Below are positions 390 to 58,549 of a stretch of 64,000 nucleotides of DNA, piece after piece. The number at the start of each line of letters is the position of its first letter. Positions within the stretch are counted from its first letter, which is position 1. The DNA is taken from positions 49,538,001 through 49,602,000 of the forward strand of contig NC_043012.1 of NCBI RefSeq assembly GCF_006345805.1, written 5' to 3'. Below the pieces are notes generated by a model that was given only the letters and a program-made list of their open reading frames with translations, searched no databases and was not told the DNA's origin. Both the position numbers and the translations under genes were made by a program. The DNA is from Octopus sinensis (lineage: Eukaryota).

Positions 390-589
390 ATATATATATA
401 TATATATATAAATAATAAATATTAGGGAATAAATCCAAATTTACAGGGAAAAAATCAGATTTAGGATTAAATCCAATTTTATAGTAAAATATTATAAAAT
501 ATTATTAGAGACAAAACCACTATTTTGCAAAACAAACAAGGAAAGACTTAATCAATACATAAAATTTTAATAAATAGTCAAAAAAACCG

Positions 590-632
590 CCACTACAATC
601 GTTTCTTGTCTTGATCGACAATCTTCAGGTGG
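590..632 (-). ncRNA. Minimal type I hammerhead ribozyme
   Basis: Minus strand reads ccac CUGAAGA uuguc gaucaa gacaa GAAA c gauu g UA gugg. Stem I is ccac/gugg, stem II is uuguc/gacaa, stem III is short and self-complementary (acgauugu). Core is intact; predicted cut at GUA between 594 and 593. Confidence 0.85.
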
Positions 633-856
633 ACTTCCAATCTAAGAATAAAATGTGATACTTGATCCTTCTTAGTCCCTTCAATGAAGCAATCAGAGTC
701 AGCTACTAGGCTCAAGTCTTTGACCAGATCAGTCAAAGCCATAAAGTCATCACCAGCACCAAGCACTCGAATGAGAAAGTCTAGGCGTTTGAAAGCAAAT
801 TTCTCCAATTTTTCCAGGGAAATATTTCCAGAAGGAGGTTTTATATAAAATGACAT
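593..856 (-). pseudogene. PRIM2: N-terminal fragment of a DNA primase large subunit (PRIM2-like) fused to ribozyme-derived codons
   Basis: FYIKPPSGNISLEKLEKFAFKRLDFL and KKDQVSHFILRL match the PRIM2 motifs FYxxPPxxNISLxEFExxAxxRxxxL and RxDHISHFILRL (recalled). Homology ends at HFILRL; the last 14 codons are largely hammerhead sequence. Confidence 0.75.
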
Positions 857-1044
857 CTTGGAGTTTTGAAGTTTTCAGCTCTCTTCTTAACGACCAAAAT
901 AGAAACTTTATAGTCATCTTCGTGCTAAAGAGCGGTCTGAGTCCAGATCTTCCATCATATCACCCATCAGACTTAAATAACTGTTGTTGTTGTTGGTGTG
1001 ATAAATAAACATTTAGCCAACATTGTGGAATTCAAATTCGCGGC

Positions 1045-1081
1045 ATTGTTACTGTAAGTAACAATGTTACTTACAGTAACA

Positions 1082-1083
<2 letters not shown>
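1045..1083. repeat. Perfect 39-bp palindrome (19-bp arms, 1-nt centre)
   Basis: attgttactgtaagtaaca-a-tgttacttacagtaacaat. Confidence 0.95.
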
Positions 1084-1124
<41 letters not shown>

Positions 1125-35761: not shown

Positions 35762-36327
35762 AAACATGCAGAGTAACATTTTGGAACTTAGAAACTCCGA
35801 AAGAAGTGAAGTAAATTATTGTTTATAGACAAAGCTATAAACAAGGCATGTAGAATTTGCGTTTAAACCCTAGTATTCTACACGCGATTATTTAAAGCTG
35901 TCCAACTTCTGACAATATAACATATGATACGCCAAGTGATCATTTAATTTAATGTCTGACTGTATATACAGTAGAAAAGGAATTCGCAATTTTATAGCTT
36001 TAAATAAAATGCATTTAGCTTTTTGTTGCTATTCTCCGCTGTCCGATTTCAAACCAAGCCAACGTCTATTTTATGTTACATATTTGGGAGTTTGATAGAA
36101 AGAGCATACACAGGGAACCTTTTTTTCTTTTAATCACAGCCGGATTAGTGAACATCTCAGAAGGTCGGTCGAGATGATATTTGATATTGTACCGGTTCTT
36201 TAAGTACATAAAATATCACATGCAACGACTCTGGTTCCAAGCAGTATCGCTTTGCAAGTCTGTGGCTTTAACTTGGACAAACTAGGGTATAGAAACGGGA
36301 GACTGATATATATATATATATATATAT

Positions 36328-36625
36328 TGATATTATGTATTAATAGTAATGGTAAGACAACAAAGGAATGAATGAGACCTCGATATTATGTAAATAGAGG
36401 AATTTATCTGTAATATGATATGTGACAATTATTCGGTTGCCATAATAAGACTCCAAGTTTTGGGTGTCGGAGCGGAAACCTGCTCCAGCATCTCGTCAAC
36501 TATCGAGGCAAGCATTTTTTGATTGCCTTGATAACAGACGAGATGCCGGAGCAGGTTTCCGCAGCGGCATCCGCAACTCGGAATCTTAATGTGGCAACCG
36601 AATAATTGTCATATATTATTTTACA
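36328..36625. mobile_element. Penelope-like pLTR fragment with an inverted duplication; both arms carry degenerate hammerheads
   Basis: Arms 36409-36511 and 36523-36625 are inverted. The inferred consensus is gataa CTGACGA gatgccggagc..gctccggcatcc GAAA ctcggag TC ttat. Flanked by (TA)n. Confidence 0.75.
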
Positions 36626-36641
36626 TATGTATGTATGTATG

Positions 36642-41416: not shown

Positions 41417-43444
41417 AACCAATTTTGGAATCAATATTAAATATGTTACATATTTATAAACGAGACAGTTGGATTCGAACCAAGACAAAGTGTGCATCAG
41501 TAGTTTTTAACTCTGAATGATCTCCAAAACATATTTGACATTATTAAATCGAAAGTCTGATAAATTGGAATTGTGATATTAATGCTTACGTACATGTTGT
41601 CTTAGAAGTGAAATAATTTGAACACAAAACCTCAGTACATGAGGAGTTCACCGGCAACAGTGAAGGTGGAATCAAAAACAAAAGCATACAAAAATTTTGG
41701 AAATCTCAAAACCCTCTACAAAAAAATTTTCCTGAACGCCCTTTGGCAGTATACTGGACAAATTCATACTAGTTTCTTTAGCTTGAGGTTAGAATCTATG
41801 AAACGATATACCTTTGCATCAGGAATTAGAAAAATGAGTTCTGCAAGCTAATAAACGATTTCTGAAATAGAAAGTTCTCCTGGTAATATAATGAGGAAAT
41901 ATGTCTCATGGGGTACTTACTTGAAGTTACACGGACTGGAATATTGAGTAGTTCATTGTACTGGTTACTGGGATAGCCCCATAAACTTCTGATATCTTAT
42001 TATCTCTAGCAATAAATCAACTTAGTAACAATATCATGAAATTATCTAGTTCAGCTATCTCACTTTGTGCTGAAAGAAACGATAAATTTGAAAGTAATTT
42101 AATTTTAAAAATAACACGGAATTCTTTTCTATGTAATGAATCTAGGTTATGATAATCAGTTAGATCTTGTGTTTGAAGACAATTATTATGTTGGTCTGCG
42201 AAGCAGCACGAAAATGTACGTTTCAATATAGCATCCCTGCTCTCATTCTCCCCGTAAGCAATTTTAAAATTTCGAATTTTTTATGTTTTGGGGGATACTC
42301 ATGAATGTCACATTAACTCCTGTTCCCTTTTTGTTAAAAAAAATTAGGGCATTTGCGATCATTTAAAAGAAAATCAATGAATATTACTGAAGATAAGTAA
42401 CGCGAAACAACATTAAATTTTCGTTAGGATATTGTTTTGTTTCAACTACATTGATTTTTCTGCCAGACATTCTCACAATAAATATCTAGTTTTACCCAAC
42501 TAAAGAATGGACGTCATTGTGTTTGCGTGATATAAAGTGATATTAAGGGTCACTGATGAACCAACATTTCGACCCCGGCATCGAAACGCGTTGATGAATA
42601 ATTAGCAACCACAATGCACGTAACTTGGAGGAGAAAACTAAGTAATTAATCAGTGTTATTCTCATGGTTGTCACCTGATTAGCTACGAAGGCAATTTATT
42701 TCACTCACTGTGATGTCTCGCTTTAGAAGGTTGGCAAATTGACAACAAAGTTCGTAGCAATAACAGTATCATTTATTTAAAATTAGACAACAGGGAAACA
42801 GCAAGAAACTATGCACACAATAAACACATTGTTTGTCCTTGATTATGAGAAGAGACCTTATGTTTTAGAAGAGAATAAATGGGAATTTGTTATTTAAACT
42901 CCTTACAACTTGGTGGTAAGGAGTGTAAATATAAAGGGATTGGAACTAATTTCGAACCATGTAAGGGAATTGAAACTAGTTTCAACAAGAACTCGACCAC
43001 AAAAATTTATAACAAGGCGTCTGTTTTCTAATCAATGGTACCCAATACATGCATAACAAAAGTATGTAAGTCTTGGTAAATTTTTATGGACATTTACAGT
43101 TGTAATTGGAGAAACATTGCTTTAATTAAGAGCTGAAAATATTTCATAATTTGTTGTGAAGTCTTATAATGTTTGTTACTGACGATTAGTTATAAGGAAA
43201 ATTCCATAAAAGATGAACAAGAGTAGAGTCGGTGGAAGGATTCAGTTCTCTTTAGAGAAGTTATTCCATTAAAATATGTTCATTTCATTCATCCCGGAAA
43301 GACAAAATGAAATGTTTACTCAGGTGAAACACGAATTTAGATCGTAAAGAGTAAATGTAGGACGTTGTCTAATACGGTGCTCTGTAGATTCGGCTTTACA
43401 GCAGTATTCAGTTTCCTATATGCATACCTGTATGTGCGTGTGTT

Positions 43445-44900: not shown

Positions 44901-44916
44901 TAAACAAAGTATGTAT

Positions 44917-44993
<77 letters not shown>

Positions 44994-45017
44994 ATATACA
45001 TATATACATATACACAT

Positions 45018-45067
<50 letters not shown>

Positions 45068-45068
<1 letters not shown>

Positions 45069-45336
45069 GGAGTAAACACATAAATGTGAAACAAGGTGGA
45101 AAAAAGAGTACTCAAATACCAGTGGTAGAGTAATATGCTTTATTTTAAGCAGCAGAAAATTCAACAAAATCTGTTACTCTGAGTTTCTCGTTGCCGTTCA
45201 TCAGACAGTTTTTGCTAGAATGGAACATATATATAAATTTATATATATGTTCCATTCTAGCAAAAACTGTCTGATGAACGGCAACGAGAAACTCAGAGTA
45301 ACAGATTTTGTTGAATTTTCTGCTGCTTAAAATAAA

Positions 45337-45342
<6 letters not shown>
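45068..45342. mobile_element. Penelope-like pLTR fragment with a perfect 200-bp palindrome
   Basis: 45138-45337 is a loopless perfect palindrome centred on aaa|ttt. The left arm continues to 45068, and both sides are (TA)n. Confidence 0.85.
45267..45304 (+). ncRNA. Minimal type I hammerhead ribozyme (mirror copy on the minus strand at 45171-45208)
   Basis: cugu CUGAUGA a cg gcaa cg a GAAA cucagag UA acag. Stem I is cugu/acag (extendable to caaaaacugu/acagauuuug), stem II is a short GNRA-capped hairpin with an A-A at 10.1/11.1, and stem III acucagagu is palindromic. Confidence 0.8.
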
Positions 45343-45419
<77 letters not shown>

Positions 45420-47279
45420 ATAGATAGGTAGATAGATAAACACACACACATATACTGAAGTACTGGTGCTGTTCTCTTCAATTTTGATGTTAACAAGAGC
45501 AGAGTAGCGTTGGGGTACTGCGACGGTGCTAATGAATTTTTTTTTTTAATGCAAGATTAAGTAGTGGCTGGTTCGATCCACTGGAGTACTGTATATCGAA
45601 TTAAGGATATTTATGCCATTTTAACTCAAATGAAAATATTTGGAACTTCACATGGTTTCCAGGAGTTGTATGATACATATGAAAAACAGAACAAGAATCC
45701 AAATCTGGTATTTCTTGATGAAAGCAATGTGGCTTACATTATCCAGTCTGCGGCACACATTGTAAGCTGTAGCTTTTGTTTTCTCCGTTTAAAACGAAAC
45801 CTCTGAATTTTGGAAGCGAGGAATAATGAGAAGTGGTCGTTCCTAATGTTCTCTCATAAAATATAATTAGTAGCATGATACTTCTGAAATAATTTCAACC
45901 GAGAATCGAAACTGTGTCACGGCCCCAATTTGGTGAAAGCGAAGCACACGTTGCTGCACGAAATACAGAAAGTGTAAAATTTATTGATGGTACACAAGAC
46001 ATTAATAGATACAATTATATCTCGTTAAAGCAAACATGTTGATGTTAAAAGGATCTTTTGATGCTGTAGTAAGTCTCAGGGGACTAAATAAACTACTAAT
46101 GAGAAAACTGTCTATTCTAGTTTTAATTATATTTTATTTACAATATGGCTGAGAGGAAGTACGTTGAGTTTGCAAAACGCTCTCCTGGGGTACTTTTCTT
46201 CAGCCGTATTGTTGATGTTCATTATCCGCGTCTCTGTTTTGGTCACTTACGATATTGCCAGATGTACATTATATGCTTTGCCGAGGATGTTTAATAAAGC
46301 TGAAACATTATTTCATCGGTCGATATTAATGCAAGATCCAATTCCACTGTAACAATTTTATGTTGAAAAAAAATTTTTATCAAGTAATCTGTTTAGATTT
46401 ATACCATTTGCTTTTACAACATCTTAACTTAATTTCCAAATTTTCTCTGTTAAATATATGACTATATACAGCGTGCAATGTTTTGTATTTAGTTAGTGGA
46501 GAGAGGGAGGAATGAAAGCTGTCACCACGTTGTAAAACACTAAATGTTTAAATATAATTAAATATGTTTCGATCTGAAACATGCAACTACTGCACGTAAT
46601 GCAATTAATGTAATGCTAAAATAATATACTTTAGTGAAGCTTGCTCTGCACTGAGCGAGACGGTTTATCAGTGACCCCGATCTTAGATTTATAAAGATTT
46701 TGGCTCTATCAGATATGCAAGAGAATAAATTGGTAAATGAAATCAGTGCATGTATGTGTGTTTATTGACCATCAATAAAATTCTAGCGAATTATGAAATG
46801 ATGCATGACATTACATTGCAAATGCGTTATTTCTCTGATTTCCATGAGTTTCGCATAGTTATGAGCCCTATGCTAACGATGTTGATAGTCTTTATCTTTG
46901 TAGGATAACATCATTTTTTCTGTACTACTAAATCTCGATAAACTGGTAGCTGCTTTCAAAAGTTAATATTTTACAACGCTGTCATCACAACGTTTGCCGT
47001 AATATTTAAAACTTCTTGTGTTTAGTTTGTTAATTTCCGCATGGAATACCGGATTGAAAATATTTTCTTATCATCTTTATCGACTGCTAAATGTCCCATC
47101 TGTGCTCTCGTTATTTCTGTCTGTTCAATCTGATCTTAAATAATGTAGTCCAGATCAATTCTAGAACAACTCTCCTGATAGTCATTGAAGATACAAAGAA
47201 AAGAAGCTTCGGCATTTTCTGAAGAATTCAGACATTTTAATGACGCCGTAAACTAGATATGATAATAATGACCTAATTT

Positions 47280-48725
47280 AAAATTTGACAGTTGTCACAT
47301 CGCTCCATGCAATAAATCACAGCTAATTGTTAAATGTGGAAGTCAACACGTTATTCCATACGTGCTAATAGTATCCTCAGTTTCTAAAATTCTTGCCACG
47401 ATCCCTAAAGTTGATACAGATATTTTATAATCGATTCTTTTTTAGGAATAGTACTGTTTCTCTCCGCAGAGATGAAATAGATAAGGTTACTGAAAATCTG
47501 TTGTACATGGAACTTAGAAAGAGAGAGTCTAGCATAAAACTGGACAAATTAACTATAAACGTAGCAAGCATTTTTAATGACGTATAGTCTTTTTTGTTAA
47601 AGAAAAATAAAGTCTTTGAAGAAATTGTTCTAAATCATTCATAACAGATACAAAGAGGGGAGCAATTTTTAAAGTTTCTTTTTTAAAAAAATAGTACCTC
47701 GAAGTTAAGAACCCCAGCCACCAAAAAATAAAATTAAATAAAACATACATATCAATAAAATGGTATCGTTCGCTACTGATGGTACACGATCTGTGACAGT
47801 GCTTTCGAATCATATATGGAAAAGAAGTGTCTTATATGTTGGCTGTTCACTGTGTAATTCATCGGCATTACTCCGAAAAAAGTTCGTGAGTAGCTGATTT
47901 ATAACCACGAGAAAATCAAAACTCAGGTTTTAAACATTAAGCTTCCCCATCAATTTTGTGGCAAATGAAGAAAGTTGAAACATTACTTGCCGACATTGAA
48001 GTCCGATATATTTGTTCCAGTTGCCGAATTTTTACCTATAAATCGTTATGGTTTAACTAGCTAAAGGCATTGACTATATTTGTAGAGATGTGCTTTAATT
48101 TATTGCAAGGCGAATACGGGGAATTTGCAAATGCAAGGAGACAATTTAAATTTGAAACACGCACAGAATGTAGTCTGCAGGTTTGTAAGTAACATTGAAT
48201 TGTACACGCGAAACAGTGGCCGAAGGGATTTTTGTCAGTTTCCATCAATGAAGATCCATTCAAAATAATTTACAGATGATAGTCTGAGGACCTACTCAAC
48301 ACATTTGCGACAATCAAAGGAATATTTGAGTGAACTTTTAATGATTTAATTAAACCAAGAATTCTTAACTGCATAAAAATCACATTTGTGTTCAAAATAG
48401 AACACAAAAATTGATTCAGAGGAGACAAACATTGATTCACAATACGATGAAGAAATAAAGATTTCTGAAAATCAAAAACTGTATTAAATATGGTTCCAAT
48501 GTCGTCAGTAATATCCTAACTGTTGAAGGAATCCAATCTAATTTTATTGCTATTACATTCTACTTCATGGTGGGAAAATGTTTTAGGACAGGAAATCAAA
48601 TTTTGATGAAGAATAGAAACCGAATGAATTGTAGTACTGCGTGGGTTTTATGATCTCCTTCGTAAAATTTACAACCAAATATTGCAAACTTTCTGATGTT
48701 CATCAACTACAGGGATCACATTAAT
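47280..48725 (+). pseudogene. Decayed hAT (Charlie/Buster, ZBED5/SCAND3-like) transposase
   Basis: NSTVSLRRDEI, SIKLDKLT, VSFATDG, AVHCVIHRH (CxxH), EVR, KNRNRMN and terminal QPNIA..HQLQGSH* occur in the expected order, with stops and frameshifts. Confidence 0.8.
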
Positions 48726-48810: not shown

Positions 48811-49063
48811 AAGGCACGTGGCCTAGTGGTTAGAATATTCAATTCTCGGTCGTTGTCTCCTTGAGCAAGATATTTTATTTCTCGTTGCTCCAACCCACTC
48901 AGCTGACGAAACTGAGATGTACACATAATTGAAAGGGCCAGCCTTCTCAAGTTCTCTGTCACACTGAATCCGCCAGGGACTTTGCATTTTAATTTCATGA
49001 GCAGGCTGTTCAAATGATCGGATCAACTAAAACATACGTTGTCGTAACCGACGAAGTACCAGT
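48811..49063 (+). mobile_element. tRNA-derived SINE (family C)
   Basis: aaggcacgtggcctagtggttagaa head; body matches 78-389. Confidence 0.75.
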
Positions 49064-50056
49064 GTTTTCTTTCTTATTAGCATTGTAGAATTTATAAGTA
49101 TAGGTACGACAATAAACATCGAAACGTTTTTGGAGGTAAGTGCGGGAAACGTTGGATAACATAGATTTTGAAGATAATGGCTATAACTGGCCGATTTCAG
49201 AAGTTGCAGTTCGTACAAGTTGGATTCGTATCTCTTCCATTATAATGTTTTTAGATTCTATTAACTGACCAAATGACTCTTGATTTTATTAAGCAAGTTA
49301 GGAAGTATGAAGTGTTTTAGGAAACATTTGCACTCTACAGCGGTCATTTTGTGATCACGTGCAACTGTATTTAGGGAAGTCGTTTTATAATTGCCCAAAA
49401 TATAGATGCACTAGTTTTACTCCAGCTTGCCTATTGCAAGAAGAAGCTCCCAAAATGCAGGCAACTTGTTCATAATACTTTGAGCTAAAAAAAAGAGCAA
49501 AATATTATCCTGTTCACACTTGAACATTATTTCTCACAAAATTCTGCCACCCAACCTAATTTTATTAATGATCAAGGTATTACCTACCCTAGCTCTCATT
49601 ATTGATCCTCAAAAAAAAAATCAATTATATTGGGACATAGTTTGCCTATTAATATGATTGGAAAAAAAAACGCACTTTTCCTTCTGTGCACTCGACACTT
49701 TATACTTATATCTTTATTGCATTATTGATATTCTCCCCGTTTTCCGATTTCATGAAATGAATTCGTTTTTTGACACGGGAGAGACGTTTTCAGAAACAGC
49801 AATTTATTAAAAATCAGTGTTCAATAGAAAATATATTCTATATTCGTCATTCGTGGAATATCTGCATTGATTTCCAACATTACTACAAAGGTAACGAATT
49901 GATGAAACAGGATGAAGCCGATTTTATCCCCACCGGTACTAGAATGTCACTTATTTCATTGATGCGCGAAAATCGGAACTCGGGACAGAGAATGGCATAA
50001 TCAAGTGCCGCCAAGCGTGTATTGCCGAAGTCTAATGATTCCTAATGCTTGTATAG

Positions 50057-51366
50057 AAAGCAGGCCAAGCGTCATTCAACGAAGAAAGCGGACCAAGAAT
50101 CATTCAACGAAGAAAGCGGGCCAAGCATCATTGAACGAAGAAAGCGGACCAAGCGTCATTCAACGAAGAAAACGGGCCAAGAATAATTCAACGAAGAATG
50201 CGGATCAAGTGTCATTCAACGAAGAAAGCGGACCAAGCCTCATTCAACGAAGAAAGCGGGCCAAGAATCATTCAACGAAGAAAGCGGACCAAGCCTCATT
50301 CAACGAAGAAAGCGGGCCAAGCATCATTCAACGAAGAAAGCAGACCAAGCGTCAATCAACGACGAAAGCGGGCCAAGCCTCATTCAACGAAGAAAGCGGG
50401 CCAAGCATCATTCAACGAAGAAGGCGGGCCAATCATCATTCAACGAAGAAAGCGGGCCAAGCATCATTCAACGAAGAAAGCGGACCAATCATCATTCAAC
50501 GAAGAAAGCGGACCAAGCATCATTCAACGAAGACAGCGGGCCAAGAATCATTCAATGAAGAAAGCGAGGCAAGCCTCATTCAACGAAGAAAGCGGGTCAA
50601 GCGTCATTCAACGAAGAAGGCGGGAAAGCGTCAGTCAACGAAGAAAGCGGGCCAAGAATCAGTCAACGAAGAAAGCGGACCAAGAATCATTCATCGAAGA
50701 AAGCGGACCAAGCATCATTCAACGAAGAAAGCGGGCCAAGCATCATTCAACGAAGAAAACGGGCCCAGCATCATTCAACGAAGAAAGCGGCCCAGCGTCA
50801 TTCAACGAAGAAAGCGGACCAAGCGTCATTCAATGAAGAAAGCGAGGCAAGCCTCATTCAAGGAACAAAGTGGGTCAAGCATCATTCAACGAAGACAGCG
50901 GGTCAAGCATGATTCAATGAAGAAAGCTGGCCAAGCATCATTCAACGAAGAAAGCGCGCCAAGCATCATTCAACGAAGAAAGCGGACCAAGCGTCATTCA
51001 ACGAAGAAAGCGGACCAAGAATCATTCAACGAAGAAAGCGGACCAAGAATCATTCAACGAAGAAAGCGGACCAAGCGTCATTCAACGAAGAAAGCGCGCC
51101 AAGAATCATTCAACGAAGAAAGCGCGCCAAGCATCATTCAACGAAGAAAGCGGACCAAGAATCATTCAACGAAGAAAGCGGACCAAGCGTCATTCAACGA
51201 AGACAGCGGGCCAAGAATCATTCAAGGAAGAAAGTGGGCCAAGCATCATTCAATGAAGAAAGCGAGCCAAGCCTCATTCAAAGAAGAAAGTGGGTCAAGC
51301 ATCATTCAGCGAACAAAGTCTGCAATGCATATTTCAACGAAGAAAGCTAGCCTAGTCTCATTCAAC
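50057..51366 (+). repeat. 28-bp minisatellite/satellite array, about 46 units, consensus ccaagcatcattcaacgaagaaagcggg
   Basis: Direct inspection; no spacers. The 28-aa periodicity of the overlapping ORF equals 3 x 28 nt. Confidence 0.97.
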
Positions 51367-55737: not shown

Positions 55738-58549
55738 CGTGCGTACAGTTATATTTTAATATTTGTATATTTTCTTTTTATAAGCATGCGTACGTGGTAG
55801 AATTTTAATATTTCCAATAACAATTTTCCTTTTCTTTTTGAAGGTAGGGGATTGTTTTTTAACAAGGACACTCGACACGATCGAATTGTTGTAAATTATA
55901 CGACTAATACGATTTATTAAAAAAGAAAGAAAAATATTAAAATAAATTATAAAGAGAGAAAAAAAGAAGAAACAGAAAATTTATATTAAAAATAATATTA
56001 ACGAACAGATAACAAAAAATAATAACCAAAGAAACCATCAGCAAAATGACGATAAAAAAATTCTTCAAAGGACAGGTTTATTGATAAAGCCACAAAAATT
56101 GCAGAGCGATATCTTAAAGCTGAACACGGGACAACATTCCTTGATTAGCCGCTTGGAATGGCCTATTAAGCAATTGAATTGTAGTTTTTAGTTGCCGTCA
56201 TTGAAAATAACATAACGAAGGAGGAGGAGAAATAGAAAAAAATATTAAAGAAAAAAATTAAAAAGAGAAAGGAAAAAATCTATTCAAAGAATGGAATATA
56301 CAAGAGGAAAGTGGTAGAGGCTGCAGCAAAATAAAATGTATCAATGTAACGTTGCAAAGGAAACAGAAAAAAAACAAGAAAATATACACCCACACGCACA
56401 CAGACACATATATTTGCGCATGTGTGTGTATACGTATATACATTCGTATATTTGAGTGTGGAATATATATATATATAAATAAACACATATACACATATGC
56501 ATATAGCACACGTGGGCATATGCATGAATATATCAAATGGAATAGCAAAAATAAAATGAAACTGAGGAAAACAAAGGATTAATATGGCTTTGTGTGATTG
56601 CATATCAGAAGTGTTTCACTGATTGTTACTTAAATTTTGTGATAATGTCAAGCTTACCCTTCACCAACATAAATCTCAACCGGATAAGTTATTGTTTTCT
56701 GGCGACCATATTTTTGTAATTTCAGTTCTGGTTTGATCTTTGAATCTTTATTTTTAAACGAATTATTACTTGTTTGTTCTTAATGCAATCTGAATTTGTA
56801 TAATTCTTTTTGTGTACATGTACGCGTATGAGATTGTGTGTGTCTGTGGGTGTTGTGCGTGTGACATGAACGTATATTAATGCATGGCTGTGTGTGCATG
56901 TTAGCGATTATGTCTGATATATCTTTGATCTCATCATAAATCATCTGGATTTCGTTTTGAAAAATATGTGCACAAAAGTATGCTTATAACGACGATTGAT
57001 GATGTTGTTAGTACTGTTGTTGTTGTTGCTATTATTGTTCTTGATTTCTTGGATTCTCAGAACTGGTACAACATCGAAAAATTGCCTTATCCGATAGTTT
57101 TCTTTACATCTTGCTTTCAATCGTAGTATTGAGCTTTATTTTGTGCCGTCCCGGCGTAGACAAGATAGTAACAATCAAAAACCGAGCGCCATTTAAGTGA
57201 CTATGCTTCTACTCCATATTTCCATCGAAAAATTGACCTTTGTTAGAAATGATTAATGCAATAACAATTAATATAACTATCACTGAGCTGGAAGAAACAG
57301 GAAGTCATCGGACGAAATAGCATGAAATATTTAATTGTGTCCATTTATATTCCCACCATGTTCAGTCGCTTTTTAACTTTCGTCCTTCTGATTTAAATAA
57401 AAACCACTGTGATGTAATATGTTTAGTATTTCATCTGCGTTCATTTCCTACATTTTTGGCTTCACAATTATTATTTTTTATTATTGTTGTCGTTTGGTTT
57501 CAATCTGCATGTTTGCTGCAATCACTTGCTGAGACACACCCAGCACCCTAAAGGAAGTGAAGGATAAGAGATATTACACTATGACTTAAAGCTTAGAGAG
57601 GGGAGTGGCAGAAGCAGTAGCGAAATATCTCAATATAATACAACACATTGAAATAGATACAGACTTTCTAAAAATGTGGACAGTACTCGTCAGTACAATC
57701 TTGTGGATTTCTCTGAGACATGGATCTCCTGGGACGTTATATAAATATTTTTGACATCTCTTTTTTATCATACGTAGGACACCTAAAATAAAAGGAGCAG
57801 TCCTTGCTTTAAGATGTCACATCAATTGTATTTTAATTTCTAGGTCTTTATATTGACTTCATTTGTGAAATTGCTTTACAGATATATTTTCATCAGTGGG
57901 GACAATTACATCTGTTAGTCTATAAGTATTTTCTTCCTTGTCTTTAATAATTATGTCTGCTTCATTGCCTTGAATCTTTCTATCGGTGTTGACTGGAAAA
58001 TCTCAAAGGATAGTGACATTTTTATCTTGAACGACCAGTAAGTAAGAGTGCTGATTTTCTAGTGTTTACATATTTTCCAGTGTAAATACTGCCCTACGCT
58101 ATCATGAGGATTTTGTATACGTTTCATGTCAGCACAGGATATCCAGAAGGGTAATGGTCTATTGTTTCATCAACTGTGTGGCAGAATCTGCATTTAGGGT
58201 CAGTACCGTTTTGGAGAACTTGAGCCTGGTAGATTCTGGTAAGTAAGCTTTCATATTGTGGCGCCTTCAGTCTCTGCTTTCAATCCTGAGCTTCTCAGCT
58301 CCTGATGGATTGCTGTTTGGTCTACATCAGTATTTTGACTTCAAAGAATATACTGACTATGCAGGGGCTTCTGACTCCATCACTCCTCGGTTTGTTTCCG
58401 CCCGTTCTTTTTTGCAGTTTGCTTGATTCGTTTTATTTCCTTGGGGGCAGGGGGTTTCAGGTTCTTCATCTAATTCAGGGTCAATGCCAACTTCCCTTGC
58501 AAATTTACAAACATCCTTGACAGTAGAGTGTGATATTTTGCTGCTAGTC

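What the first reader, a model, noticed from the sequence alone, without database searches (positions are those of the whole stretch)
1045..1083. All three hammerhead elements end in a fold-back upstream of the ribozyme and sit in (TA)n
Seen: the elements at 411-1088, 36328-36625 and 45068-45342 have unrelated sequences, yet each has an inverted duplication on the 5' side (19-bp, ~100-bp and 100-bp arms, with 0-11 nt spacers) and (TA)n flanks. Established: inverted pLTR copies are reported for Penelope insertions. Inference: they share a hairpin-primed or template-switch integration mechanism that targets TA microsatellites.
Basis: partly seen in the sequence, partly recalled or inferred. Interest (0 to 1): 0.7.

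Follow-up and report, generated by a model that had tools for sequence, protein, structure and literature searches.

The report
Twin-primed Penelope insertions carrying host exons
The three mirror-image ends are real insertions of a known kind of jumping gene (Penelope-like) in TA repeats, but they are likely made by copying one RNA twice, once from each cut DNA strand, rather than by a fold-back, and one of them carries two spliced exons of a host DNA-primase gene that were likely joined to the element by splicing.

Summary
Palindromes and (TA)n flanks are real, but the three are not one structure. Elements 2 and 3 are head-to-head arm pairs of Penelope-like elements (PLEs; families 1 and 3 fit the Hydra clade); the arms contain the hammerhead, and one arm has a 70-84 nt tail, the other not. 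This layout and TA targeting are published. A single fold-back does not build them: in family 3, 47 of 47 visible partners of tail-less ends carry the tail, and the tail-less arm reaches further 5' in 14 of 48 pairs. Element 1 is a spliced PRIM2 retrocopy joined at a GT donor to the element's own splice acceptor; its 19-bp palindrome is a small junction scar built from 14 host bases. In 9 of 9 family-1 pairs with foreign sequence on both sides, both arms carry the same foreign sequence, one tailed, one tail-less: one sense, spliced RNA primed twice. Ten of 10 traced joints lie at GT donors; 0 of 7 source genes hold an acceptor copy 50-194 kb downstream, so trans-splicing is open. The scan noted twin priming (other genomes) and splice capture (this genome) before; I found neither in print for PLEs.

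The parts
390..411 (.). (TA)n target, tail side of element 1
412..495 (-). Element 1: 84-nt 'tail' of PLE family 1 (between the two fixed 3' ends)
   Evidence: tail-less family copies stop at the position equal to 496
496..641 (-). Element 1: family-1 pLTR from the splice acceptor (first exon base 641) to the tail-less end; 412-641 is 230/230 identical to family copies L209, L310, L328
590..632 (-). Element 1: type I hammerhead motif (core intact, 4-bp stem I, 5-bp stem II, short helix III); activity untested
   Evidence: no Rfam hit
642..858 (-). Host PRIM2 (DNA primase large subunit) exon 2, 100% identical to G000:C13:23024990-23025206, ends at its GT donor; ATG at 856
857..1053 (-). Host PRIM2 exon 1 (5' UTR), 100% identical to G000:C13:23020022-23020218; 4.8-kb GT-AG intron removed
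   Evidence: host RNA contigs end at 1051 in 2 of 3 runs
1045..1083 (.). The given finding: 19-bp perfect palindrome, wholly made of both strands of a 14-nt stretch at the host transcript's 5' end; likely iterative snap-back fill-in during end joining
   Evidence: spanned by a contig of run X2
1081..1088 (-). 8-nt stub equal to the first bases copied from family 1's tail-less start; likely the second, abortive cDNA
   Evidence: 22 of 30 tail-less family-1 ends begin with the same 8 letters; same stub at L335; 3 of the 8 letters also belong to the palindrome arm
1088..1122 (.). (TA)n target, 5' side of element 1
36328..36405 (-). Element 2: tail of PLE family 2 (about 78 nt), next to (TA)n at 36307-36327
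36406..36508 (-). Element 2: tailed arm, decayed hammerhead
36526..36628 (+). Element 2: tail-less inverted arm, 84/103 identical to the other arm, decayed hammerhead, followed by (TA)n
45068..45137 (-). Element 3: 70-nt tail of PLE family 3, next to (TA)n at 44910-45066
45138..45237 (-). Element 3: tailed arm with hammerhead motif at 45209-45171 (2-bp stem II, minimal type)
45238..45337 (+). Element 3: tail-less inverted arm with hammerhead motif at 45266-45304; centre on an element-encoded AATT; followed by (TA)n 45338-45426

Best explanation
The three are insertions of three Penelope-like retrotransposon families in (TA)n, and the mirror-image arms of elements 2 and 3 are likely two separate cDNAs primed from the two cut target strands at two fixed sites of one sense RNA and then joined head to head, while element 1 is a spliced PRIM2 fragment joined at a splice donor to family 1's acceptor, likely inserted the same way with an abortive second cDNA and a snap-back scar. 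Steps: (1, shown) each family has two fixed 3' ends 70-84 nt apart, and a two-ended insertion has one of each; (2, shown) both arms carry the same splice junctions and foreign exons, so the template is spliced sense RNA of one species; (3, shown) either arm can reach further 5'; (4, inferred) the GIY-YIG nuclease nicks both strands of (TA)n and two RT molecules start at the two sites; (5, inferred) both run to the RNA's 5' end or break, which couples their lengths; (6, inferred) host end joining fuses the two cDNA ends at 0-4 nt of self-complementary sequence, sometimes with templated fill-in; (7, shown) host exons end at GT donors on the element's own 5'-UTR-intron acceptor; (8, open) whether that splice is in cis or in trans.
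For: Family 3: 82 tail-less ends on contig C1; 49 have an inverted arm >=24 nt; 47 of 47 with a visible outer end carry the tail, 0 are tail-less; 5' ends: tailed arm further 13, within 4 nt 21, tail-less arm further 14 (n=48); 5' ends coupled (Spearman 0.79; long-long 9, long-short 2, short-short 37, Fisher p 3e-8); in 9 of 10 long pairs the arms are closer to each other than to any other pair's arm. 14 of the 33 ends without a long partner join TA directly, so the tail-less site primes by itself; 2 have 6-12 nt tail stubs. Family 1: 18 of 19 two-ended insertions among 22 read are tail/tail-less; its 23-nt first exon with GT donor lies 1.1-2.4 kb upstream of the acceptor in 7 long copies (417 exact matches), and 30 of 34 facing pairs of spliced copies have <=48 nt between acceptors, about twice the exon. 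Barcodes: 9 of 9 pairs with foreign sequence on both sides carry the same sequence, one tailed and one tail-less. L215/216: seven spliced exons of a C5 gene, tail-less arm 832 nt, tailed arm only 298-832; likewise L208/209 (+315 nt), L217 (+about 300 nt), L213/214 (+12 nt). Ten of 10 traced joints at GT donors. In vitro, a Poseidon PLE cuts and extends both strands and starts RT at two sites that bound the tail (PMC11167929, parts 1-2 of 4 read).
Against: L323 looks tail/tail. L228 and L232 have one chimeric and one native arm, and multi-unit copies L066, L068, L069 pair ends from different tandem units: these need a tandem RNA or two RNAs. L165's arms are no closer than other loci; in 36 short pairs own-arm and cross-locus divergence hardly differ (0.61% vs 0.76%). 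The family-3 sample was anchored on tail-less ends, so tail/tail pairs could not be counted there. Asymmetric deletion at a palindrome's centre after a fold-back could mimic non-nested arms. Element 1's stub is only 8 nt, AT-rich, 3 of them shared with the palindrome. Family 2 was studied only in 30 loci of +/-1.5 kb.
Confidence: 0.72

Rival explanations
1. Fold-back (hairpin or self-priming, possibly on an antisense template as proposed for Adineta PLEs): one cDNA folds back and copies itself, the nuclease trims the copy at the tail-less site, and later central deletions blur the junction.
For: 21 of 48 family-3 pairs end within 4 nt of each other, many on a self-complementary CTAG; arms are near-identical; element 1's 39-nt scar is itself a snap-back product; proposed in print (PMC3846280, discussion passage).
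Against: Tail-less arm further 5' in 14 of 48 and by about 300 nt of host exons in 3 traced chimeras; non-overlapping partners (L203, L317, L334) and 14 solo tail-less insertions joined to TA; zero-spacer centres leave no loop (L146); both arms carry spliced joints, which an antisense template would not.
Confidence: 0.12
2. Two cDNAs from two different RNA molecules held by an RT dimer, one per target strand.
For: L228 and L232 have unlike arms; L323 is tail/tail; the Poseidon protein is predicted to be a dimer (PMC11167929).
Against: Rare chimeric RNAs appear in both arms in 9 of 9 pairs with foreign sequence on both sides, although foreign joints are 30 of about 2,700 family-1 matches counted; own arms closest in 9 of 10 long pairs.
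Confidence: 0.1
3. For the host capture only: ordinary cis exon trapping. A family-1 copy once sat in sense in each host intron, trapped the upstream exons, and is absent from the assembled haplotype or hidden in a gap.
For: About 1,180 acceptor-bearing copies exist; PRIM2 intron 2 holds an N gap; one gene (C14) and one other foreign sequence (L228/L232) were captured twice; exon-trapping alleles would be purged.
Against: 0 of 7 source genes hold an acceptor-bearing copy in 50-194 kb downstream of the donor, 4 of them without gaps; at least 17 different foreign sequences among 19 insertions; the C14 gene was joined at two donors 95 kb apart.
Confidence: 0.45
4. For element 1 only: RT jumped from PLE RNA to spliced PRIM2 mRNA at a microhomology, with no splicing to the element.
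For: The spliced host mRNA (exon 2|3) and the PLE agree in 11 of 12 nt around the joint; L205/L206 join the element's own ORF to the same acceptor at a microhomology without a donor.
Against: All 10 traced joints fall on the same PLE base and on a host GT donor, most with no homology beyond the AG or none at all (C12 copy); that base is the element's own acceptor.
Confidence: 0.08
5. Assembly or library fold-back artefact.
For: Perfect palindromes beside microsatellites are known long-read artefacts (own knowledge); raw reads of elements 2 and 3 were not seen.
Against: Fixed tail/tail-less ends in 47 of 47 pairs; element 2's arms have diverged to 82%; an X2 contig spans element 1's palindrome.
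Confidence: 0.02

Closest known systems
Hydra-clade EN+ Penelope-like elements (Craig et al. 2021, PMC8557442; abstract, section 11 and passages read)
   Same: C-terminal GIY-YIG EN, RWK and DKT motifs, CxCx5C linker, CxxC and CxH motifs, hammerhead in the pLTR, (TA)n targets, partial tandems, adjacent inverted 5'-truncated copy, tail at one end, intron in the 5' UTR (stated there for Penelope and Chlamys).
   Different: Tails here are 70-84 nt, not 30-40. That paper ascribes the tail to EN resolution of an intermediate and leaves the inverted copy unexplained; host-exon capture and mass insertion of spliced RNA are not in the passages read.
Poseidon element PAc of Anolis carolinensis (Frangieh et al. 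2024, PMC11167929; parts 1-2 of 4 read)
   Same: Both target strands cut and extended, AT-rich target, two internal RT start sites that bound the tail.
   Different: The parts read do not say that one insertion uses both sites, one per strand, on one RNA, nor derive the inverted arm from it.
Adineta vaga Penelope elements (Arkhipova et al. 2013, PMC3846280; parts 2-3 of 5 and passages read)
   Same: Inverted pLTRs with palindromic junctions, tail on one arm, mobilisation of host sequence.
   Different: There the host gene keeps its introns and lies between pLTRs, and the palindromes are read as self-priming on an antisense template; here the host sequence is spliced, lies 5' of the pLTR acceptor and appears in both arms.
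LINE-1 twin priming and LINE-1/mRNA chimeras by possible trans-splicing (bioRxiv 10.1101/2025.02.02.635956, passages read; Ostertag and Kazazian 2001 seen only in its reference list, content recalled)
   Same: Two primers on one RNA give an inversion; host first exons end at donors on an element acceptor, and 15 of 17 source loci lack an intronic element.
   Different: L1 twin priming (recalled) inverts a non-overlapping upstream part at a variable site; here two fixed sites give an inverted duplication. Here one natural acceptor takes all joints and there is no poly(A) tail.
Minimal hammerheads of metazoan PLEs (Cervera and de la Pena 2014, PMC4209133; passages read)
   Same: Type I core with short, often palindromic helix III in the pLTR; the D. 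virilis intron ends at the 5' end of helix I, as family 1's ends 9 nt before stem I.
   Different: Element 2's copies are decayed; element 3 has a 2-bp stem II with an extra A on each side; cleavage untested.

Membership tests
EN+ Penelope-like element | Single ORF with RT followed by a GIY-YIG-type endonuclease | tested here: met
   Families 3 and 1: long copies have an ORF with YRDD and a C-terminal G-VY...Y-G module; family 3 has 2,904 homologs, the top hit annotated PF01541. No direct Pfam or PDB hit. Family 2: RT-like ORF (40-50% to family 3) directly after the pLTR in L057.
EN+ Penelope-like element | pLTR partial tandems, adjacent inverted 5'-truncated copy, tail at one end | tested here: met
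   L066-L069, L070, 47 of 47 pairs.
EN+ Penelope-like element | Placement of the RT among PLE RTs in a tree with reference sequences | not tested
   No named reference PLE proteins were fetched.
Hydra clade | RWK and DKT motifs, CxCx5C linker, CxxC and CxH motifs in the EN | tested here: met
   Family 3: RWK, DKT, CNCKNESSC, CKLC, CRH; family 1: KWK variant, DKT (read from DNA), CTCRDKSNC, CxxC, CRH; definition read. Family 2's motifs were not read.
Hydra clade | Insertion into (TA)n | tested here: met
   26 of 27 terminal tails; 47 of 47 partner ends.
Type I (minimal) hammerhead ribozyme | CUGANGA, GAAA and UH core with helices I-III | tested here: met
   Elements 1 and 3 by motif and stems; family 2 in 18 of 29 other copies. 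Not met in element 2's own arms. No Rfam hit.
Type I (minimal) hammerhead ribozyme | Self-cleavage | not testable with these tools
   Only 3 of 82 family-3 arms end within 2 nt of the predicted cut; no assay.
Processed retrocopy | Introns removed, distinct parent locus | tested here: met
   PRIM2 exons 1-2 joined, parent on C13.
Processed retrocopy | 3' poly(A) tail and target-site duplication (LINE-made type) | tested here: not met
   3' end is the PLE tail running into (TA)n; no TSD can be read in the microsatellite.
Fold-back (hairpin-primed) insertion | Second arm nested within the first strand | tested here: not met
   14 of 48 family-3 pairs and 6 of 8 traced family-1 chimeras are not nested. 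Met only for element 1's local scar.
Trans-spliced chimeric retro-insertion | No acceptor-bearing element downstream of the donor in the same animal | tested here: inconclusive
   0 of 7 genes in this assembly, 3 with an N gap; other haplotypes and ancestors not seen.
Non-LTR retrozyme | Tandem non-coding units each with a hammerhead | tested here: not met
   The three elements are head-to-head or single, and each family has an ORF-bearing parent; definition from bioRxiv 2026.07.22.740005 (part 1 of 5 read).

The most novel reading that the evidence does not exclude
A Hydra-clade Penelope element's own 5'-UTR acceptor takes host exons by trans-splicing, and its twin-primed insertion then pastes them as poly(A)-less, often palindromic retrocopies into TA repeats: a LINE-independent route to gene-fragment duplication whose chimeric RNAs are natural barcodes showing that PLE inverted arms are two cDNAs of one spliced sense RNA.
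Probability: 0.38. Interest if true: 0.8.

Novelty: new variant of a known kind. Interest (0 to 1): 0.6.

Why it matters
How PLEs make their inverted arms and one-sided tail is stated as unresolved in the papers read, and the one published explanation I found is self-priming, perhaps on an antisense template. The host-exon chimeras here test that directly: both arms carry the same spliced exons, and either arm can be the longer, which favours two primings on one sense RNA and gives a simple in vitro test. They also show that PLEs, known for keeping introns, insert spliced RNA in large numbers (about 1,550 family-1 matches lack the AG; 21 of 22 such insertions read carry the spliced first exon) and copy host exons without poly(A) tails, a class that retrocopy pipelines would likely miss.

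Tried and rejected
Rfam scan: 0 hits. Folding: no significant stability. Pfam on the element-1 ORF and on four PLE ORF pieces: 0 families; PDB: 0. My first reading of the families as Neptune-like was dropped after reading the Hydra definition. The idea that element 3's central TA run is captured target DNA was rejected: it is in the family. The idea that the 23-nt leader is a trans-spliced leader RNA was rejected: it lies inside the element with its own GT donor. The idea that arms stop at the ribozyme cut: only 3 of 82 end there; most short arms end at -153 to -134, near an initiator-like motif. No RNA holder was listed as RNA on record; no listed RNA contig bridges exon 2 and the PLE, which says nothing on expression. 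The X2 contig across the exon 1/2 joint has only 29 letters a side, under the tool's bar for bridging. In X5 and X10 the exon contigs run into host introns without a break, which hints at absence of the retrocopy, but no contig showed the empty site. Two foreign sequences could not be traced to a donor (L207; L225/226). One of 83 listed C1 ends (L095) was fetched on the wrong side and dropped; L158's short match was counted as no partner; L167 (multi-unit) was left out of the 48. Flanks of the C26 and second C23 donors were seen only for 1.5 kb. No SINE control and no related species were examined. Literature searches that found no PLE twin-priming or splice-capture paper: (mostly open-access library; supplements not read and may bear on this).

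Full report
Setting. The window is G000:C16:49538001-49602000 of a 2.72-Gb animal genome; a source names the host protein found below as from Octopus sinensis. E1, E2 and E3 are the elements at 411-1088, 36328-36628 and 45068-45337. 'Tail' is the stretch between a family's two fixed 3' ends; positions such as -150 count back from family 3's tail end.

Observation. E1 has perfect 19-bp arms with a 1-nt spacer and E3 perfect 100-bp arms with none; 0 such palindromes arose in each of 25 simulations. E2's arms are 84 of 103 identical with 17 nt between them. All three sit in (TA)n. Hammerhead cores with stems are present in E1 (632-590, minus) and in both arms of E3; E2's are broken, though 18 of 29 other copies of its family are intact. 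Rfam and folding give no independent support. So the palindromes are real, but in E2 and E3 they contain the ribozyme motif, and only in E1 does the palindrome lie upstream of it.

What the families are. E3's family is young (40 of 40 scored copies 100% identical over 161 nt; 1,128 tail-less ends next to TA). Long copies have a 3.35-kb unit with an RT and C-terminal endonuclease ORF in partial tandems and inverted arms. E1's 3' part belongs to another young family (1,178 exact matches with the native AG) with a related ORF (27-39% in three pieces). Both show the motifs that define the Hydra clade, for which hammerheads and (TA)n targets are published (PMC8557442, section 11 read). E2's family is older (2,272 candidates, 40 scored), has the same tail/tail-less layout and an RT-like ORF after the pLTR in L057. 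Inverted 5'-truncated copies and a one-sided tail are published (PMC8557442, PMC3846280; passages read). The layout and the target are therefore known.

Test of the fold-back idea. A fold-back copy can hold only what the first strand holds. I read 82 of the 83 tail-less family-3 ends listed on contig C1. Forty-nine have an inverted arm of at least 24 nt, and 47 of the 47 with a visible outer end carry the tail; none is tail-less. As only one arm has the tail, it would have to be the first strand, yet the tail-less arm reaches further 5' in 14 of 48 pairs, the tailed arm in 13, and 21 end within 4 nt. L203 pairs a 59-nt piece of tail with a 1,650-nt tail-less arm that shares no sequence with it. 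Of 33 ends without a long partner, 14 join TA directly and 2 have tail stubs of 6 and 12 nt. The two 5' ends are coupled (rho 0.79; 9 long-long, 2 long-short, 37 short-short) and the arms of a locus are closest to each other in 9 of 10 long pairs; L165 is the exception, and short pairs do not discriminate. The sample was anchored on tail-less ends, so it cannot count tail/tail pairs; in family 1, 18 of 19 two-ended insertions among 22 read are tail/tail-less (three partner calls made by eye) and L323 looks tail/tail.

Element 1. Bases 1053-857 and 858-642 are exons 1 and 2 of the host PRIM2 gene on C13, 100% identical and joined across a 4.8-kb GT-AG intron. Exon 2 ends at its GT donor and is joined to the base after an AG in family 1's pLTR; 412-641 is 230 of 230 identical to family copies. 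Host RNA contigs end at 1051 in 2 of 3 runs (RNA by guess), so the copy likely reaches the transcript's start. All 39 bases of the palindrome match one or other strand of a 14-nt stretch there: I infer repeated snap-back fill-in during end joining. Beyond it, 1081-1088 equal the first 8 bases seen at 22 of 30 tail-less family-1 ends, and L335 has the same stub beside a tailed arm; I infer an abortive second cDNA, on weak evidence. A contig of run X2 crosses the palindrome without mismatch.

The acceptor is the element's own. A pattern for non-AG joints gave 1,556 matches; the 30 loci read are 22 insertions, 21 of which carry part or all of a 23-nt leader. That leader lies inside long copies, after an initiator-like motif and before GTAAGT, 1.1-2.4 kb upstream of the acceptor in 7 copies. 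So spliced RNA is inserted in bulk, and in 30 of 34 facing pairs the acceptors are at most 48 nt apart, about twice the leader: both arms stop at the RNA's 5' end. A 5'-UTR intron is published for Penelope and Chlamys (PMC8557442), ending at helix I in D. virilis (PMC4209133; passages read).

Host exons as barcodes. A pattern for non-native bases before the AG gave 30 matches; 26 of them, in 19 insertions, carry at least 100 nt of non-family sequence at the acceptor (five of these may be plain truncations and were not traced). This search was prompted by an earlier scan note on splice capture in this genome, which may concern the same family. I tried to trace 12 foreign sequences (E1, ten of the 19, and a further copy on C12 found); 10 led to a host donor and all 10 are GT; 2 were not resolved. 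In 9 of 9 pairs with foreign sequence on both sides it is the same sequence, with one tailed and one tail-less end. The tail-less arm holds the extra 5' part in L215/216 (297 nt, seven spliced exons in all), L208/209 (315 nt), L217 (about 300 nt) and L213/214 (12 nt); L224 and L233 pair a long chimeric tail-less arm with a short tailed one; the tailed arm is longer in L221/222, and L211/212 are equal. Against a strict one-unit model, L228 and L232 have one chimeric and one native arm, and L066, L068 and L069 pair ends of different tandem units; a tandem RNA would account for these, and so would two RNAs.

Mechanism. Shown: two fixed 3' ends, one of each per insertion; spliced sense template; same RNA species in both arms; arms not nested; coupled 5' ends. 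Inferred: nicks on both strands of (TA)n, two RT starts on one RNA, run-off at its 5' end, head-to-head end joining (E3's centre is an element-encoded AATT; many others CTAG). This fits the in vitro finding that a Poseidon PLE cuts and extends both strands and starts at two sites bounding the tail (PMC11167929, parts 1-2 read), and it goes against the published self-priming reading with a possibly antisense template (PMC3846280). I put it at 0.72; fold-back with later central deletion at 0.12; two RNAs at 0.10.

Cis or trans. None of 7 source genes has an acceptor-bearing family-1 copy downstream of the donor: C13 92 kb, C10 79 kb and C18 50 kb (one N gap each, in C13 within the intron itself), C5 100 kb, C4 93 kb, C23 58 kb and C14 194 kb without gaps. 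The C14 gene was captured twice, at donors 95 kb apart. Lost or unassembled source alleles explain this as well as trans-splicing does; a like pattern led others to propose trans-splicing for LINE-1 chimeras (bioRxiv 2025.02.02.635956, passages read). Contigs of three RNA-guessed runs also leave the window at the acceptor into different sequences, which I could not trace. For E1 alone, an 11-of-12 microhomology leaves a template switch possible.

Novelty and verdict. The elements are members of a known clade in a known layout. The mechanism and the capture route are variants that I did not find in print for PLEs (searches; subscription papers and supplements not covered). The scan has reached the twin-priming reading in at least 16 genomes and splice capture once in this genome; these notes are unchecked and are not counted as support. 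What this locus adds is the barcode test and the negative search for cis sources. Interest 0.6.

Noticed in passing
L213/L214 and L284/L285; sources G000:C7:50755431-50755624 and G000:C14:60012051-60122358: The first captured exon maps to C7 and the later ones to C14, in two independent insertions: a mis-scaffolded gene or a transcript spliced across chromosomes.
   Followed up: partly
L205/L206 (G000:C2:66.80 Mb): Tandem 408-nt units made of family 1's hammerhead, tail and ORF start, joined back to the acceptor at a microhomology; looks like a retrozyme being born from a PLE.
   Followed up: no
L212:808-950 and many tandem copies: A young repeat of about 404-nt period forms the first exon of a captured transcript, so it likely supplies a promoter to a host gene on C4.
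   Followed up: no
L228 (C22) and L232 (C10642): The same stretch, reading like an LTR-retrotransposon RT region (recalled, not searched), is joined to the family-1 acceptor in two separate insertions, once on the tailed and once on the tail-less arm.
   Followed up: partly
L038 (G000:C17:1.87 Mb) and L068:7675-7772: PLE insertions of different families stack in one TA run, as expected if each insertion leaves fresh (TA)n.
   Followed up: no
L070:3445-4044: The family-1 ORF has a long asparagine-rich insert between RT and EN, like the N-rich inserts reported for Adineta PLEs (PMC3846280).
   Followed up: no
family 3 copies L089, L151, L157, L171, L175: Several more diverged copies switch to a different upstream sequence at about -666, hinting at a subfamily or another splice point.
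   Followed up: no
window 42387-42407, 42553-42586, 43179-43200, 48462-48508, 48903-48934, 57665-57693: Further CUGANGA...GAAA motif matches in the window, not examined.
   Followed up: no
window 50055-51366: Satellite of 28-nt period, 47 copies, 86% matches.
   Followed up: no
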